Part shown: positions 1 through 32,000 of the stretch, piece by piece
Numbering within the stretch: position 1 is the stretch's first letter
How the letters are laid out: each line of letters opens with the position of its first letter
Assembly: GCA_964577555.1 (NCBI GenBank)
Contig: CAZNZM010000003.1
Coordinates: 35,837-67,836 of the forward strand
From: an uncultured archaeon
Lineage (GTDB): Archaea > Iainarchaeota > Iainarchaeia > Iainarchaeales > Iainarchaeaceae
Reading direction: 5' to 3'
DNA: 32,000 nucleotides
Notes under the pieces: model-generated
The model's database searches: none
Seen by the model: only the letters and a program-made list of their open reading frames with translations
What the model was told of the DNA's origin: nothing
Program-made: the position numbers and the translations under genes

Positions 1-195
1 CCTGGCGGAATTGCTGTTATCCAGTTTGACTGTTTTAGTCCTAACAGTCTTAAATTTAATGATGATGTTAGATTCAAGAATGAAATTGCTCTTTTATTGA
101 GGCAATATAGAATTAATAATTTTGAATTTAAACGGACTGGTTCAGATTTATGGCCTACTGTTTTATTTTTTCAAAAACCGGTTGTTAAATTGTGA
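1..195 (+). CDS. C-terminal fragment (truncated by the window edge) of a class I SAM-dependent methyltransferase-like protein; paralog of 5464..6225
   Basis: Frame 1 is open from base 1 to TGA at 193-195. The translation PGGIAVIQFDCFSPNSLKFNDDVRFKNEIALLLRQYRINNFEFKRTGSDLWPTVLFFQKPVVKL parallels the C-terminus of the 5464..6225 product (RPGGIAVIHFG...ILYFEKPFVKIP). Nt 1-27 match 6067-6093 at 24 of 27 positions (hand aligned). Confidence 0.6.
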   Translation, partial: PGGIAVIQFDCFSPNSLKFNDDVRFKNEIALLLRQYRINNFEFKRTGSDLWPTVLFFQKPVVKL

Positions 196-339
196 GTGGT
201 GTTCCAAGTATTTTCAATATTGCAAAGTGTTTTTTAGAAGCTAATGAAATTGCCAAAAATTTGTGGCGGTTGCGTAGTCTTGTGTGGGTATTAAGTGCTT
301 TAGGTTATAGTAACGTCATTTTTTAATTATTTTTTTGTT

Positions 340-1110
340 TTGTCATTTGTGGTTTTTATGAATGGCTTTACTGCTCATATTATTGTTAAGAATGAAGAAA
401 GATTCATTAATTATGCTATTGAGTCTGCGCTTCTTATTGCTGATCAAGTTATTGTTTTTGATACTGGTTCTACGGATTCAACAATTGAAATAGTGCAATC
501 TTTGGTTAGAAAATATCCTAATAAAATATTTTTTTTTGAGAAGGGTAATCAGAGCACAACTGGGCTTGTTGAATTGAGAAATGAAATGATAAAGCTTACT
601 AAGACTGATTGGTTTTTTTTAGTAGACGGTGATGAAGTAGTCTCTATAAAAAATTTATCTGCTTTTTTAAATTTTTTTAGTTCTTTGTCTGAAAAAGTTT
701 CAAGAGTTGAGGTGAATAGGCGTGATTTTATAGGAGATGCTAATTTAGTGGCAAGAAATAGTTTGGTTGGGCGGTTTTATAAGACAAATAAAATAGTTTT
801 TTTTGGGGAATATCCTTTTGAATATCCTGTTTTGAAAGACTTTTCAAAAGAAACAATTGAATCTTTTTCTGTAAGCATTTCGGAAGATTTGGTTTTGTAC
901 AATCATTTTACTTATTTTGCCCGTTCGCAAAAAGATAATGATGTAAAGTTTGGGAGACACTGGCGTAAGTTGCCTTTTCCAATATTATTGTATTTTGGGT
1001 CAAAACCTGTTCCAAATATTGATGAAAATTTGGTTGTTGCTTTGTTAAAATTTCCGATTTATAATTTAATTGGGTTGTTTAATAATATGTTGTTATTTAA
1101 TAGAAAATAG
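340..1110 (+). CDS. Glycosyltransferase family 2 (GT-A fold)
   Basis: ORF track 340..1110 starts at TTG; the first ATG is at 358. HIIVKNEE, VFDTGSTDST and the DxD-like FLVDGDE motifs are typical of GT2 enzymes. Confidence 0.7.
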   Translation: MSFVVFMNGFTAHIIVKNEERFINYAIESALLIADQVIVFDTGSTDSTIEIVQSLVRKYPNKIFFFEKGNQSTTGLVELRNEMIKLTKTDWFFLVDGDEVVSIKNLSAFLNFFSSLSEKVSRVEVNRRDFIGDANLVARNSLVGRFYKTNKIVFFGEYPFEYPVLKDFSKETIESFSVSISEDLVLYNHFTYFARSQKDNDVKFGRHWRKLPFPILLYFGSKPVPNIDENLVVALLKFPIYNLIGLFNNMLLFNRK

Positions 1111-1306
1111 TGATTTTTTTTTAATATAAATTTCATTTATTTTTTTTATTAAGATTTTGTTTTTAATTTTGGAATTGTTTTTTTTGTTATTTTTTTTGTA
1201 TTCTTTTTTTGTGAGCCATTTTTTTTATTTTCTTTTTTTTCGTTTTTTTTTTAATTTTAATACTTTGTTTTTTTTGTTTGTTTTGGTTTTTTAATACTTT
1301 CCTAAA
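1111..1306 (+). repeat. G/T-rich intergenic array A (T-run array with GTGAGCC core at 1211-1217)
   Basis: Starts right after the stop of the + gene 340..1110. Long T6-T10 runs are separated by short islands. The core GTGAGCCAT is flanked by T7/T8 runs, as in the other arrays. Confidence 0.6.
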
Positions 1307-29901: not shown

Positions 29902-29908
29902 TAGTAAT

Positions 29909-31834
29909 ATGTTTTGGCCTGTTAGAATGTGCAAAGCAAGGATTTATGCGTTGAAAAGCGATTTGCAGAAAGTGACGAATGTGTTGTATGATTATGGTGT
30001 TATTGAGCTAAAACAATTCAATGTAAAGCATTCTTCGTTGTTTACGTTTATGGGGCAGGAACACAAAATGAATGATTCAAATAATTCTGAAAGGCTCATG
30101 AGGCTTGAATCAATTTTGAAAAAATTTGGAAATTGCGGAGTTGTAAAGAAGATTTCAGTTTTGGAAGCCAAGTCTCTTCTTAAATCACAGGAGATGAAAA
30201 AATTGGAGTTGGAAATAGTCCGATTGAGCAGTGAAATTGAAAATGCGGTTGCAAGGATAGATTTGTTGAAAGAGGATATTAACAGGTTGAGGTTTTTTTC
30301 TAAATTTGACATTGATTTTTCTTTGGCGCAGCTTGAAAGTGCTGAACTTGTTGTAGGAATTGTAAGAAGGCAGAATTCCTATTCGGTTGAAAAAATTTTT
30401 AAGTCTGATAATGTATTGCATAGTATTGTAAAGCCGCAATCTCAAAATTCGAGTATGTGTGTTGCACTTGTTAGGAAAGGTGATGAAAAGATCATAGATG
30501 ATTTAGTCAAGGCTGGTTTTGAAAGGTTGCCTATTCCAGCGATTAAGGGCAAACCTGTTGATGAATTGGCAAAAACTGAAAAGCTTTTGGCAAAGGCGGA
30601 AAAAGACAAGGAAAATCTTGAGTCGAGGGTGCAAAAGCTGGTTGGGGAAAATTTTTCCAAATTGGCTGGGATGAAAGAGCTTCTTGAAATAGAGCAGTAT
30701 AAAAAAGAAGCTTCTTTGAAATTCGGTTCTACGGAAGATACTATTATTGTTGAGGGCTATTTGCCTGAAAAAAATTTTCATTTGTTGGAGAAGTCTATTG
30801 TTTCAAAGTTTGGTCAAAGAGCGTATGTTGAAAAAATTTCTTCGGAAGAACTTGAAAGGAATCATGAACAGGCACCCACGCTTCTTAATAATAACAGGGT
30901 TTTCAAGCCTTTCCAGTTTATTGTTAATTATATGTCAACTCCAAAAAGTAACGAAATTGATACTACCGTTATTTTTGCTTTTGTGTTTATGCTTTTTTAT
31001 GGAATGATTGTTGGCGATGTTATTTACGGTTTAGTTTCTTTTTTCATTGCAAGATGGGTTTATCGCAAGTCAAGCAAGGACAGCATATTGAAACCTGTTT
31101 CATTGCTTTGGATGTATGGTGCTGTTCCTACTATAATTGCTGGAATAATATTTGATGAGTATGCTGGTTTGCCACACAGGGAATTGTTTTCTTTGTTAGG
31201 TTTTGGCCATGTTGAACTTTACACTGGTTTTGAAAGAATGCACAATACTCAGTTGATTCTTGCAATATCTTTGTTGATAGGCATAATTACTATGGCTTTT
31301 GCTTTCCTTTTGGGTTTTATAAATGCTGTTAGGCATCATGATAAAAAGCATGCTTCTGCAAAGTTGGCTTGGTTTGGAATAGTGATTACTGGAACAGTAC
31401 TTGTGGCAACGTCCATGTTTAAGGCTTTTCCGGACATTTTTATGATTCCTTCAGCAATTTTGTTTGCAATATCAACGATAATTATGATAAAAGTAGAAGG
31501 CCCTATTGGTTTGATTGAAATTCCAAGTGTTGCGGGAAATATTCTTTCTTTTGCAAGGTTGATTGCAGTGGGTTTGGTTGGAACTGTAATAGCTTTTATA
31601 TTGAATGAGATGGCAATGCCTTCTCCGGACAAGGGTTTGATGTTGATTGTGTTTTTGCCTATTTTCATTTTAGGGCATTTGTTTAATGCTTTTTTGGCTA
31701 TGTTTGAAGCCTTGATTCAAGGTGCGAGGCTCAACTTTGTTGAGTTTTATTCAAAGTTTTTTGAAGGCGGCGGAAAGGAATTTCAGCCGTTTAAATTGGA
31801 AAATAAGTATTTGAAATCCATGGAGGTGGATTGA
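29909..31834 (+). CDS. atpI: A/V-type ATP synthase subunit I (a-subunit homolog)
   Basis: 641 aa. Soluble coiled N-terminal half, polytopic C-terminal half, with the conserved Arg region SFARLIAVGL. Confidence 0.9.
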   Translation: MFWPVRMCKARIYALKSDLQKVTNVLYDYGVIELKQFNVKHSSLFTFMGQEHKMNDSNNSERLMRLESILKKFGNCGVVKKISVLEAKSLLKSQEMKKLELEIVRLSSEIENAVARIDLLKEDINRLRFFSKFDIDFSLAQLESAELVVGIVRRQNSYSVEKIFKSDNVLHSIVKPQSQNSSMCVALVRKGDEKIIDDLVKAGFERLPIPAIKGKPVDELAKTEKLLAKAEKDKENLESRVQKLVGENFSKLAGMKELLEIEQYKKEASLKFGSTEDTIIVEGYLPEKNFHLLEKSIVSKFGQRAYVEKISSEELERNHEQAPTLLNNNRVFKPFQFIVNYMSTPKSNEIDTTVIFAFVFMLFYGMIVGDVIYGLVSFFIARWVYRKSSKDSILKPVSLLWMYGAVPTIIAGIIFDEYAGLPHRELFSLLGFGHVELYTGFERMHNTQLILAISLLIGIITMAFAFLLGFINAVRHHDKKHASAKLAWFGIVITGTVLVATSMFKAFPDIFMIPSAILFAISTIIMIKVEGPIGLIEIPSVAGNILSFARLIAVGLVGTVIAFILNEMAMPSPDKGLMLIVFLPIFILGHLFNAFLAMFEALIQGARLNFVEFYSKFFEGGGKEFQPFKLENKYLKSMEVD

Positions 31835-31836
31835 TA

Positions 31837-32000
31837 ATGGCAGCAATAGAATTAGGTGCAGGAGCAGCGATTGGAGCTGGAATAGCAATATTGGGAGGCG
31901 CAATTGGCACCGGTTGGGCTCAGGCTGCAATAGGCTCGAGCGCAATGGGAGTCATAGCTGAAAAGCCGGATCAGGCATCAAAGCTTTTGGTTTGGATTGC
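31837..32000 (+). CDS. atpK: A/V-type ATP synthase subunit K (proteolipid c subunit), 3'-truncated by the window edge
   Basis: GGAGGTGGA precedes ATG 31837. Translation MAAIELGAGAAIGAGIAILGGAIGTGWAQAAIGSSAMGVIAEKPDQ... is a Gly/Ala-rich proteolipid pattern. Confidence 0.85.
   Translation, partial: MAAIELGAGAAIGAGIAILGGAIGTGWAQAAIGSSAMGVIAEKPDQASKLLVWI

What the first reader, a model, noticed from the sequence alone, without database searches (positions are those of the whole stretch)
1..32000. Extreme T>A (and G>=C) strand asymmetry that ignores gene orientation and reshapes protein composition
The + strand is T-rich whether a gene runs + or -. Hand counts on 60-nt lines: 7381-7440 (inside the + strand trpS) gives T27 A9 G16 C8; 8461-8520 (inside the - strand peroxiredoxin, read on the + strand) gives T31 A7 G11 C11. 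Coding strands of + genes are therefore T-rich, and coding strands of - genes are A-rich. This is visible in the proteins: + strand products are rich in F/V/L/G/D (TrpRS, aminotransferase), while - strand products are rich in K/N/I/E (enolase, PyrG, the HprK-like protein). Spurious + frame ORFs are F/L/C/V strings and spurious - frame ORFs are K/N/R/Q strings. Intergenic DNA reaches over 90% G+T. A keto-rich strand is the classical signature of strand-biased C-to-T and A-to-G deamination, but the magnitude here is unusually large. There is no sign change within the 32 kb, so the whole window would lie on one replichore. The ATPase genes at the 3' end look less skewed.
Basis: partly seen in the sequence, partly recalled or inferred. 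Interest (0 to 1): 0.65.

Follow-up and report, generated by a model that had tools for sequence, protein, structure and literature searches.

The report
One-armed extreme strand bias, DPANN archaeon
In this tiny hot-spring-type archaeon, one DNA strand of about half the chromosome, starting sharply at a probable replication origin, has been driven to about 64% T at freely evolving sites whichever way genes point; this rewrites codon and amino-acid usage, and a 2026 survey concluded that archaea hardly show such mutational bias.

Summary
The window has T 13672, A 7512, G 6445 and C 4371, and third-codon-position skews have the same sign for genes on either strand. It is a mutational bias locked to the DNA strand.

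Genome-wide, the bias covers only about 440-500 kb of the 979-kb genome (Iainarchaeota/Diapherotrites). It begins within about 100 bp of a conserved locus next to xerA, an inverted pair of 17-nt boxes. It holds a plateau (fourfold-site AT skew -0.6 to -0.76), then fades to zero. The rest of the genome is unskewed.

A congener at 63% protein identity has the same architecture. Other genera show the same switch with the same sign at 0.05-0.24. In a closed relative the locus sits at the mutational-skew minimum, 180 degrees from the terminus, so it is probably the origin.

Fourfold sites also require purine-to-T transversions.

The same 52 orthologs coded on opposite strands in two species differ 2.3-fold in Val and 2-fold in Thr.

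This is a known kind of process in a new, one-armed, mitochondrion-strength form. The scan had already noted the skew on other pieces of this genome. The domain map, the origin anchor and the mutational decomposition are new here.

The parts
1..32000 (+). The whole window: its + strand is the T/G-rich (keto) strand of a domain of constant polarity about 0.5 Mb long. By inference this is the leading-strand sense, with forks running 5'->3' along the + strand. The window is G000:C3:35837-67836.
   Evidence: Base counts. Per-gene K3 is +0.3 to +0.77 for 26 of the 28 called genes on both strands. Domain map.
1307..2527 (+). Class I/II aminotransferase, an example of a + strand gene: AT3 -0.75, GC3 +0.76, K3 +0.75. 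Its antisense frame holds a spurious 416-aa ORF (1187-2437, -).
   Evidence: Pfam PF00155, 1.5e-56; skews.
7336..8427 (+). Trp/Tyr-type class I tRNA synthetase (+ gene), K3 +0.63.
   Evidence: PF00579.
4716..5405 (-). M24 metallopeptidase (- gene). On the + strand AT3 -0.78 and GC3 +0.73, the same sign as + genes.
   Evidence: PF00557.
8435..8998 (-). Peroxiredoxin (- gene), K3 +0.62.
   Evidence: PF00578.
9077..9856 (-). NucS/EndoMS mismatch endonuclease (- gene). It is present in skewed and unskewed relatives alike.
   Evidence: PF01939 and PF21003.
16369..17640 (-). Enolase (- gene), K3 +0.49.
   Evidence: PF00113 and PF03952.
18796..20505 (-). CTP synthase PyrG (- gene): coding-strand AT3 +0.54, GC3 -0.57. 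Orthologs in 25 relatives are near 0, except distant G026.
   Evidence: PF06418.
6449..6636 (+). Intergenic T-tract repeat array (88% G+T; 136 T of 188 nt), a member of a dispersed family with a roughly 30-bp period and core GCGAGCC/GCAAGCC plus oligo-T.
   Evidence: family described.
10583..10688 (+). A second intergenic T-tract array (87% G+T).
   Evidence: motif cluster at C3:46475-46787.
28214..32000 (+). PRPP synthase and the start of the A-type ATPase operon. Third-position skew is reduced here (K3 +0.28, 0.00, +0.38). This is where the domain-wide decline (C3:64-147k) begins.
   Evidence: PF13793, PF01496.

Best explanation
The window lies on one arm of the chromosome of a small Iainarchaeota (Diapherotrites, DPANN) archaeon. 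On that arm a replication-linked mutation pressure, specific to one DNA strand, has run nearly to saturation.

The arm starts at a conserved origin-like locus (G000 contig C1:148,908-149,716). That locus is an inverted pair of 17-nt boxes, TTAG(Y)GGAAGTG(Y)GGGG, bracketing about 0.8 kb that holds a PRC-barrel gene and a 24-nt palindrome, directly downstream of xerA.

From that point the strand running 5'->3' away from the locus (leading-strand sense) accumulates T and G through three asymmetries: C-to-T, A-to-G, and purine-to-T transversions. These are the changes expected from deamination and depurination of DNA that is single-stranded during replication.

The effect holds a plateau for about 300 kb and fades to zero over a further 200 kb or so. 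The other side of the locus shows only a weak mirror-image skew for about 25 kb and then none.

The pressure is ongoing: genes that change strand re-equilibrate, and their proteins change composition accordingly.

Shown: strand-locking, the domain map, the switch point, its conservation and sign in relatives, and the mutational decomposition. Inferred: that the locus is the origin, that single-strandedness is the cause, and why only one arm is affected.
For: The skew has the same sign in both gene orientations and in intergenic DNA.

K3 jumps from about 0 / -0.2 to +0.5 / +0.8 between C1:148.9k and 149.7k. The locus is single-copy in the genome.

The xerA -> boxes -> 200-aa ORF order is conserved in at least 10 family genomes, so the junction is not an assembly artefact.

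Congener G002 (median ortholog identity 63%) has the same bimodal architecture. |K3| of orthologs correlates at r = 0.66. One of its contigs starts at the same locus, and another ramps from 0 to -0.6 over 111 kb.

Of the ortholog pairs skewed in both species, 52 of 152 have opposite polarity, which shows re-equilibration.

Other genera switch at the same locus with the same sign: G008 goes from 0 to +0.22 for at least 60 kb, G010 from -0.19 to +0.1, G032 from -0.17 to +0.05.

In the closed genome G020 the orientation-balanced K3 changes sign at 760-770 kb, where the box pair lies (768.8/769.4 kb). That is 180 degrees from a sharp terminus at about 350 kb where gene orientation converges. The main orc1/cdc6 gene lies 48-92 kb from the locus in three genomes.

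Mutational decomposition. Distance profile.

This is not a chimeric bin: 95.5% complete and 0.24% contaminated, and only 19 of 371 skewed-partition proteins have full-length homologs in the unskewed partition, mostly at paralog level.
Against: No initiator gene is adjacent to the locus.

The boxes match the ORB consensus only in part: AGTGGAA plus a G-run, without the invariant TTCC.

XerA and a unique palindrome sit at the locus, which would fit a dif/terminus reading. In G000 the genes left of the locus point towards it (112:45), unlike in G020.

Raw cumulative GC skew in G020 bottoms out near cdc6, 50 kb away, as published for Forterrea (PMC5905446).

An ordinary bidirectional origin predicts two mirror-image arms. 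Here one arm is unskewed, and I have no tested explanation for that.

Contig order beyond C1 tail -> C4 is only partly resolved.
Confidence: 0.66

Rival explanations
1. The switch locus is the replication terminus (a XerA/dif site), not the origin. Forks converge on it, so in this lineage the leading strand would be the A/C-rich one, the reverse of the bacterial rule.
For: The recombinase is a true XerA: NF040815, 272 bits against a cut-off of 220. A unique, family-conserved 24-nt imperfect palindrome lies exactly at the step. Published archaeal dif sites are unique palindromes at skew inversions, and XerS-type genes sit next to their dif (PMC2958812). In G000 gene orientation converges on the locus: 112:45 on + to the left, 5:11 to the right, and 56% of genes in the skewed domain are coded on the A/C-rich strand.
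Against: In closed G020 the locus lies opposite the point where gene orientation converges and at the mutational-skew minimum. The main orc1/cdc6 gene is only 48-92 kb away in three genomes. An inverted pair of GGAA...GGGG boxes is an origin layout. The palindrome's centre, TTTATAAAT, is also a plausible TATA box for the downstream gene. The palindrome is poorly kept in G020.
Confidence: 0.12
2. The asymmetry does not come from ordinary fork asymmetry. It comes from a one-way process that starts at the locus and leaves one strand single-stranded over long distances. Candidates are mitochondrion-like strand-displacement or uncoupled replication, break-induced or rolling-circle-type synthesis, or Hfr-like single-strand transfer.
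For: The profile is one-sided: an abrupt start, a plateau, then a monotonic fade over about 200 kb. The mutation types are those of single-stranded DNA damage, matching the vertebrate mtDNA H-strand pattern. Genes left of the locus are co-oriented with a fork arriving from the left, as unidirectional replication would predict. Unidirectional replication has been proposed for a CPR bacterium with a whole-chromosome G/C disparity (PMC7143001).
Against: A weak mirror-image skew exists for about 25 kb on the other side in G000, G002, G010 and G032, and closed G020 is symmetrically bidirectional. The T4SS-like operon lies on C10, far from the locus, and PF03135 found nothing. Protein divergence is no higher in the skewed domain: 63-65% against 62.5% identity. 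A single-stranded intermediate of 0.5 Mb is physically demanding.
Confidence: 0.15
3. Artefact: the bin or scaffold joins two organisms, or two replicons, one skewed and one not.
For: All scaffold gaps and most contig ends lie in dispersed A/T-tract arrays, and one such array lies 1.7 kb from the step. GC content is the same in both partitions, so binning could not separate them.
Against: Completeness is 95.5% and contamination 0.24%. The two partitions are complementary, not redundant. Gene order across the step is conserved in at least 10 relatives. G002 and G008 independently show skewed and unskewed DNA on single contigs.
Confidence: 0.03
4. Selection or transcription, for example purine loading, codon preference or transcription-coupled repair, produces the skew.
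For: Unskewed DNA of this genome does show a small coding-strand effect (A3 > T3, K3 about +-0.065), and intergenic A>T on the strand that carries most genes.
Against: In the skewed domain the sign is the same for both gene orientations, at fourfold sites and in intergenic DNA, and is about ten times larger.
Confidence: 0.02

Closest known systems
Replication-associated strand compositional asymmetry of bacteria (Lobry-type GC/TA skew; strand-specific codon and amino-acid usage as in Borrelia burgdorferi)
   Same: Neutral sites are G+T-rich on one strand whatever the gene direction. The sign switches at a fixed chromosomal landmark. Codon and amino-acid usage depend on the coding strand.
   Different: The magnitude is far larger: fourfold-site T 0.64 against A 0.135, and 192 excess T and 65 excess G per 1000 bases. 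SkewDB-based figures quoted in PMC12999951 are 23-25 excess G for bacteria and 7-8 for archaea. The skew is dominated by A/T rather than G/C. It affects one arm only, and it fades with distance instead of being flat. The comparison with Borrelia rests on my own knowledge and was not re-measured here.
Vertebrate mitochondrial heavy/light-strand asymmetry
   Same: C-to-T and A-to-G excess on one strand, near-saturation at silent sites, strength graded along the molecule, and proteins coded on the opposite strand having different composition.
   Different: This is a cellular chromosome of about 1 Mb. There is an added purine-to-T transversion bias that makes T, not G/C imbalance, the main signal. 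The replication mode is unknown.
Ch65 Microgenomates (CPR) bacterium with whole-chromosome G/C disparity (PMC7143001)
   Same: An ultra-small-genome organism from a thermal subsurface habitat. One strand is very different from the other regardless of gene strand. The cumulative skew is not the classical V shape, and unidirectional replication was proposed.
   Different: Ch65 has C 29.8% against G 15.0% with no A/T disparity, over the whole chromosome. Here the A/T disparity dominates, only about half the genome is affected, and there is a sharp start and a gradual end.
Archaeal oriC (inverted ORB boxes around an AT-rich region next to orc1/cdc6)
   Same: A conserved inverted pair of boxes with a GGAA core and a terminal G-run bracketing AT-rich DNA. 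The mutational skew switches there.
   Different: The invariant TTCC half of the ORB is missing, the boxes bracket a small gene, and the nearest orc1/cdc6 gene is 48-92 kb away.

Membership tests
Replication-associated strand asymmetry (Lobry type) | Skew at neutral sites that is independent of gene orientation | tested here: met
   Third-position, fourfold and intergenic skews have the same sign for + and - genes.
Replication-associated strand asymmetry (Lobry type) | Sign switch at the origin, with the leading strand G+T-rich | tested here: met
   There is a sharp switch at C1:149.65k. The same locus and the same sign are seen in G008, G010 and G032. In closed G020 the locus is at the balanced-K3 minimum opposite the terminus. 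The origin identity is a comparative inference, not an experiment.
Replication-associated strand asymmetry (Lobry type) | Two mirror-image arms of similar strength, with a second switch at the terminus | tested here: not met
   The left arm has K4 -0.17 for about 25 kb and then +0.04. The right arm has K4 +0.4 to +0.68 and fades to 0 without a sign change.
Archaeal oriC | Inverted repeats (ORB) flanking an AT-rich region | tested here: met
   The 17-nt boxes lie at C1:148908(-) and 149700(+), and the pair is conserved in 12 of 14 family genomes.
Archaeal oriC | ORB/mini-ORB consensus with invariant TTCC and GAA cores | tested here: not met
   The element shares AGTGGAA and a G-run, matching 8 of 13 positions of TTCCAGTGGAAAC, but TTCC is absent.
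Archaeal oriC | Adjacent initiator gene (orc1/cdc6 or whiP) | tested here: not met
   The orc1/cdc6 genes are at C1:60.1-61.3k and C4:16.0-17.2k. The neighbours of the locus are xerA, a PRC-barrel ORF and a 200-aa protein of unknown fold.
Archaeal oriC | Origin activity (marker frequency, 2D gels, ARS assay, Orc1 binding) | not testable with these tools
Xer/dif chromosome-dimer resolution site | XerA recombinase present | tested here: met
   NF040815 equivalog at 272 bits, above the 220-bit cut-off. It is a single-copy core gene in 17 of 20 family genomes.
Xer/dif chromosome-dimer resolution site | Unique 28-bp site with 11-bp inverted arms and a 6-bp spacer | tested here: inconclusive
   A unique 24-nt imperfect palindrome, CTTATGTTTATAAATTATACATAAG, has 10-nt arms and a spacer of about 5 nt. 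The same sequence could serve as a TATA box or operator.
Xer/dif chromosome-dimer resolution site | Location in the replication termination region | tested here: not met
   In closed G020 the locus is opposite the terminus.
Mitochondrion-type asymmetric (strand-displacement) replication footprint | C-to-T and A-to-G excess on the exposed strand | tested here: met
   Twofold sites: T/(T+C) 0.87-0.97 and A/(A+G) 0.28-0.51 on the T-rich strand, against 0.61-0.84 in unskewed DNA.
Mitochondrion-type asymmetric (strand-displacement) replication footprint | Skew graded with the time spent single-stranded | tested here: inconclusive
   AT4 goes from -0.76 to -0.6 to -0.35 to 0 with inferred distance from the locus, but contig order is only partly known, and a gradient in fork direction would look the same.
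Mitochondrion-type asymmetric (strand-displacement) replication footprint | Demonstrated asynchronous synthesis of the two strands | not testable with these tools
   This needs replication intermediates or strand-specific sequencing of single-stranded DNA.

The most novel reading that the evidence does not exclude
In this genus, one arm of a cellular chromosome is copied in a mitochondrion-like, largely one-way and asynchronous manner from an origin that is not next to orc1/cdc6. The parental leading-sense strand stays single-stranded for a time that falls with distance from the origin. This writes a saturated deamination and depurination footprint over about 0.5 Mb, while the rest of the chromosome is copied without lasting strand asymmetry.
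Probability: 0.18. Interest if true: 0.9.

Novelty: new variant of a known kind. Interest (0 to 1): 0.7.

Why it matters
A 2026 survey of archaeal genomes concluded that archaea barely create strand-specific mutations and that their skews come mainly from gene orientation (PMC12999951). This genome is a clear counter-example. It has a purely mutational skew as strong as in animal mitochondria, anchored to within about 100 bp of a fixed point.

It gives four concrete handles.

1. A candidate replication origin for Iainarchaeota that is conserved across the order and is not adjacent to the initiator gene.

2. A natural experiment in which the same proteins are written in two amino-acid dialects depending on the strand. 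This matters for phylogenetics, for ortholog detection and for gene calling, because long spurious antisense ORFs arise.

3. A one-armed sawtooth profile. It makes the replication programme of an uncultured DPANN archaeon testable from metagenomic read depth alone.

4. A graded series of relatives, with skew from 0.05 to 0.65 at the same locus, in which to look for the genetic change that amplified the asymmetry.

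Tried and rejected
1. Chimeric bin or misassembly. Rejected on marker complementarity, quality figures, and conserved synteny across the step.

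2. orc1/cdc6 genes as switch points. Neither is one.

3. A/T-tract arrays as an independent marker of replication polarity. They are co-oriented within every contig and flip at the step. However, in unskewed DNA they follow the majority gene direction, and fourfold sites there show no matching skew. I dropped them as evidence.

4. The array upstream of xerA as origin iterons. It is one of more than 50 such clusters genome-wide.

5. Repair or polymerase loss as the cause. PolB, PolD and NucS are in all five genomes compared, UDG and EndoV in none, and a Y-family polymerase is also in unskewed G008. An extra AlkA/OGG-like glycosylase is genus-specific, but it is also present in G001 and G003, whose pyrG is unskewed.

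6. Hfr-like transfer from a T4SS. The operon is on C10, not at the step, and PF03135 gave no hit.

7. Canonical mini-ORB clusters. None were found anywhere in the genome.

8. G026 as a second extreme case. It has only an ordinary skew of about -0.15.

9. Replichore conservation with G020. Synteny is scrambled.

10. Function of the 200-aa origin-adjacent protein. The model is confident (pLDDT 86), but there is no PDB fold match (best E 0.04, TM < 0.25), no Pfam match and no NCBIfam match.

12. One search was a mistyped query and returned nothing.

13. EndoQ and dUTPase were not searched.

Full report
**Observation.** The window (G000:C3:35837-67836) has T 13672, A 7512, G 6445 and C 4371. Sliding windows show no real sign change, and AT skew approaches zero only at 28-31 kb. 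I annotated 30 ORFs with Pfam. The organism is an archaeon: it has a tRNA-splicing endonuclease, NucS and A-type ATPase subunit I. Source names for homologs say Candidatus Diapherotrites, now Iainarchaeota.

For 9 verified + genes and 11 verified - genes, third-codon-position skews expressed on the + strand are AT3 -0.43 / GC3 +0.57 and AT3 -0.59 / GC3 +0.55. Intergenic DNA gives -0.39 / +0.36. The bias therefore follows the DNA strand and not the direction of transcription. The remaining window-level statements also hold: intergenic G+T reaches 0.93, spurious ORFs have the composition described, and the 3'-end genes are less skewed.

**Genome-wide map.** The genome is 979 kb in 15 contigs, 95.5% complete and 0.24% contaminated. 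I built a simple gene caller, a linear discriminant on codon-position composition trained on the verified genes. It recovers the window's genes. I use K3 = (G+T-A-C)/N at third positions on the contig's + strand.

The genome is bimodal.
- C4 is about -0.65 throughout its 120 kb.
- C1:149.7-171k is about +0.7.
- C2 and C3 are +0.5 to +0.7, with interruptions.
- C1:0-125k, C5-C8, C10 and C12 are within +-0.08 at fourfold sites.
- C9, the start of C11, and C3:64-147k are intermediate.

This is not two organisms binned together. Only 19 of 371 proteins in the skewed partition have a full-length homolog in the other partition. One pair is 75% identical and the rest are 24-42%, which is ordinary paralog level.

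**The switch point.** On C1, K3 changes from about 0 / -0.2 (xerA, a PRC-barrel ORF) to +0.5 / +0.8 beginning with the gene at 149,704. The recombinase is a true XerA (NF040815, 272 bits) and a single-copy core gene of the family.

Downstream of xerA, nearly every family member carries an inverted pair of a 17-nt element, TTAG(Y)GGAAGTG(Y)GGGG. One copy lies 1-58 nt after the xerA stop on the - strand. The other lies 650-1010 nt further on the + strand. The pair brackets the PRC-barrel ORF and a 24-nt imperfect palindrome, CTTATGTTTATAAATTATACATAAG. In G000 these lie at C1:148,908(-), 149,700(+) and 149,651-149,674, and each occurs only at this locus in the genome.

Because this gene and element order is conserved in at least 10 relatives, the junction across the step is ancestral and not an assembly artefact. 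That matters because dispersed A/T-tract arrays sit in every scaffold gap and at most contig ends.

**Relatives.** PyrG orthologs at 80-83% identity in 25 relatives have near-zero third-position skew. The same-genus genome G002 (GC 0.33; I fetched 687 kb) has the same architecture:
- contigs at |K3| 0.6-0.8 alongside contigs near 0;
- one 111-kb contig ramping from 0 to -0.6;
- one contig starting 70 nt before the palindrome.

Among 449 reciprocal best hits (median identity 63%), |K3| correlates at r = 0.66. Of these, 202 pairs are unskewed in both species and 152 are skewed in both. Among those 152, 52 have opposite coding-strand polarity. So regime membership is conserved, and genes that have been inverted re-equilibrate. 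The pressure is ongoing and tied to the strand.

Synteny with G002 joins the G000 C1 tail to the end of C4, inverted, so polarity is continuous for 141 kb from the locus. It also places C3:69-140k, C11 and C7 along G002's ramp.

In other genera the same locus is a polarity switch of the same sign but smaller size:
- G008 goes from about 0 on the xerA side to +0.20 / +0.24 for at least 60 kb on the other side.
- G010 goes from -0.19 to +0.1.
- G032 goes from -0.17 to +0.05.

**Origin or terminus.** XerA, the palindrome and the convergent gene orientation in G000 suggested a dif/terminus (PMC2958812). I fetched all of the closed relative G020 (839,632 bp).
- Its orientation-balanced K3 is +0.05 to +0.15 from about 770 kb through zero to about 350 kb, and -0.05 to -0.15 from 350 to 760 kb.
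- Gene orientation converges sharply at 340-360 kb.
- The box pair, at 768.8/769.4 kb, lies at the cumulative minimum, 180 degrees from that convergence point.
- The main orc1/cdc6 gene is 48 kb away in G020, 92 kb in G019 and 88 kb in G000, so it is never opposite the locus.

I conclude that the locus is most probably the origin, with the T/G-rich strand as the leading-strand sense, as in bacteria.

Caveats remain. Raw cumulative GC skew in G020 bottoms out near cdc6, 50 kb away, because gene orientation flips there. This matches the published statement for the Diapherotrite Forterrea (PMC5905446). The boxes match the ORB consensus only in part (PMC1904270). No canonical ORB cluster exists elsewhere in G000.

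**Shape of the domain.** Expressed on the T-rich strand, the fourfold-site AT skew runs as follows:
- -0.76, -0.67, -0.76 and -0.71 over the first 141 kb;
- about -0.6 over C2 and C3:0-64k, which includes the window;
- -0.39, -0.44 and -0.33 over C3:64-147k;
- -0.31 on C9;
- -0.37 and then -0.04 on C11;
- +0.05 on C7.

Left of the locus there is a weak mirror image (AT4 +0.24, K4 -0.17) for about 25 kb and then nothing. G002's orthologous contig is also negative there.

The skewed arm plus its fade-out adds up to roughly half the genome, but contig order beyond C4 is only partly known. The window sits on the plateau, and its 3' end is where the decline starts.

Unskewed patches inside the domain are mostly accessory or fast-evolving genes. 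C2:73-78.6k has no ortholog in the G002 sequence I fetched. The three large genes at C3:80-86k are 26-35% identical to their G002 counterparts and are unskewed in both species.

**Mutational decomposition.** Fourfold sites on the T-rich strand read A 0.135, C 0.087, G 0.142, T 0.636. Unskewed DNA of the same genome reads A 0.357, C 0.145, G 0.132, T 0.366.

Twofold sites isolate transitions. On the T-rich strand T/(T+C) is 0.87-0.97 and A/(A+G) is 0.28-0.51, against 0.61-0.84 in unskewed DNA.

However, the purine fraction at fourfold sites falls to 0.26-0.29 from 0.49, and transitions cannot do that. A purine-to-pyrimidine (mainly A-to-T) transversion asymmetry is also required. Cytosine deamination, adenine deamination and depurination followed by insertion of A opposite the abasic site would give exactly these three changes on a strand that is exposed as single-stranded DNA. 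That chemistry is established knowledge. Its role here is an inference.

**Proteins.** Genes coded on the T-rich strand (128) differ from genes coded on the other strand (164): V 2.5x, S 1.8x, F 1.65x, D 1.4x, R 1.4x, against T 0.45x, I 0.62x, K 0.65x, Q 0.69x, E 0.70x.

The cleanest test uses the same 52 orthologs coded on opposite strands in G000 and G002. They show V 2.30x, S 1.87x, F 1.59x, T 0.50x and I 0.63x. Same-polarity control pairs stay at 0.86-1.10.

**What does not explain it.** PolB, PolD and NucS are present in skewed and unskewed genomes alike. UDG and EndoV were found in none of the five genomes compared. A Y-family polymerase is also in unskewed G008. An extra AlkA/OGG-like glycosylase is restricted to the genus but does not track the skew.

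The T4SS-like operon reported earlier lies on C10. The A/T-tract arrays follow the majority gene direction in unskewed DNA and the strand bias in skewed DNA, so they are not an independent polarity marker. The conserved 200-aa protein at the locus has a confident predicted fold with no PDB match.

**Why one arm.** I cannot decide this with the tools available. Two models fit the sawtooth.

(A) A fixed, efficient origin, an initiation-free arm on one side, and dispersed or stochastic initiation elsewhere, so that net fork direction is about zero there.

(B) Largely one-way, asynchronous copying in which single-strand exposure falls with distance from the origin, as in mitochondria.

**Comparison and novelty.** The process belongs to replication-associated strand asymmetry. 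What is new is the combination:
- an archaeon, where a 2026 survey found mutational skews to be weak (7-8 excess G per 1000 bases in archaea and 23-25 in bacteria, against 65 excess G and 192 excess T here; PMC12999951);
- dominance of A/T over G/C;
- mitochondrion-like strength;
- one-armed extent with a sharp start and a gradual end;
- an anchor at a conserved box pair away from orc1/cdc6.

The nearest published oddity is the Ch65 CPR bacterium, which has a G/C-only disparity across its whole chromosome (PMC7143001).

The scan had already recorded the extreme skew on several other windows of this same genome. Those notes agree on the observation.

Noticed in passing
G000:C1:148,908-149,716 (outside the window; locus L001 10908-11716): An inverted pair of 17-nt boxes, TTAG(Y)GGAAGTG(Y)GGGG, plus a unique 24-nt palindrome between xerA and a 200-aa ORF. 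It is conserved in 12 of 14 family genomes and in G020. It is a candidate oriC that lies 48-92 kb from orc1/cdc6.
   Followed up: yes
G000:C1:149,704-150,306 (+): A 200-aa protein that is conserved in Diapherotrites only (45-73% identity, 195 hits) and always sits next to the box pair. The AlphaFold model has pLDDT 86 and pTM 0.82, but there is no PDB fold match and no Pfam or NCBIfam family.
   Followed up: yes
window 6449-6636 and 10583-10688; 46 tracts genome-wide: A dispersed intergenic repeat family with a roughly 30-bp period and core GGCT(T/C)GC plus a run of A7-9, about 70% A on one strand. It is strictly co-oriented within each contig. Every scaffold N-gap and most contig ends fall in such arrays. 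In G002, 16 of the 17 tracts found lie on strongly skewed contigs and the other lies on the ramp contig.
   Followed up: partly
window 1187-2437 (-), 9039-9644 (+), 13934-14323 (+), 16886-17251 (+): Long spurious antisense ORFs, up to 416 aa, inside real genes. Automatic gene callers could pick the wrong strand in this genome. My own first ranking chose an antisense ORF over AtpI.
   Followed up: partly
G000:C13:1453-2067 (-): A second, divergent HhH-GPD glycosylase (weak AlkA/OGG likeness). It is found only in this genus (G000-G003) and in 0 of 16 other family genomes searched.
   Followed up: partly
whole genomes G000, G002, G004, G008, G010: No UDG-superfamily (PF03167) gene and no endonuclease V (PF04493) gene was found in any of the five genomes (83-95% complete). 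The controls hit in 13 and 7 of the 14 reference genomes respectively.
   Followed up: partly
window 2515-4293 (-): A 592-aa protein with only a weak P-loop likeness to PEP carboxykinase (E about 1e-3 to 3e-6, below the cut-offs). Its function is unresolved.
   Followed up: no
G000:C2:67-78.6k, C3:80-86k, C3:28-33k, C2:146-152k: Unskewed patches inside the skewed arm. They consist mostly of accessory or very fast-evolving genes, which fits recent acquisition or replacement.
   Followed up: partly
G020:815,771(+) and 818,490(-): A 22-nt inverted repeat, TTTTGAAAAAAAAATTGAAAAT, flanks the single cdc6 gene of the closed relative. It may be a second, cdc6-linked origin-like structure.
   Followed up: no
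G000 skewed domain versus G020: Gene co-orientation with replication is strong in G020: 68-80% of orthologs lie on the leading strand. [quoted passage not shown] Genes left of the locus point towards it (112:45).
   Followed up: partly
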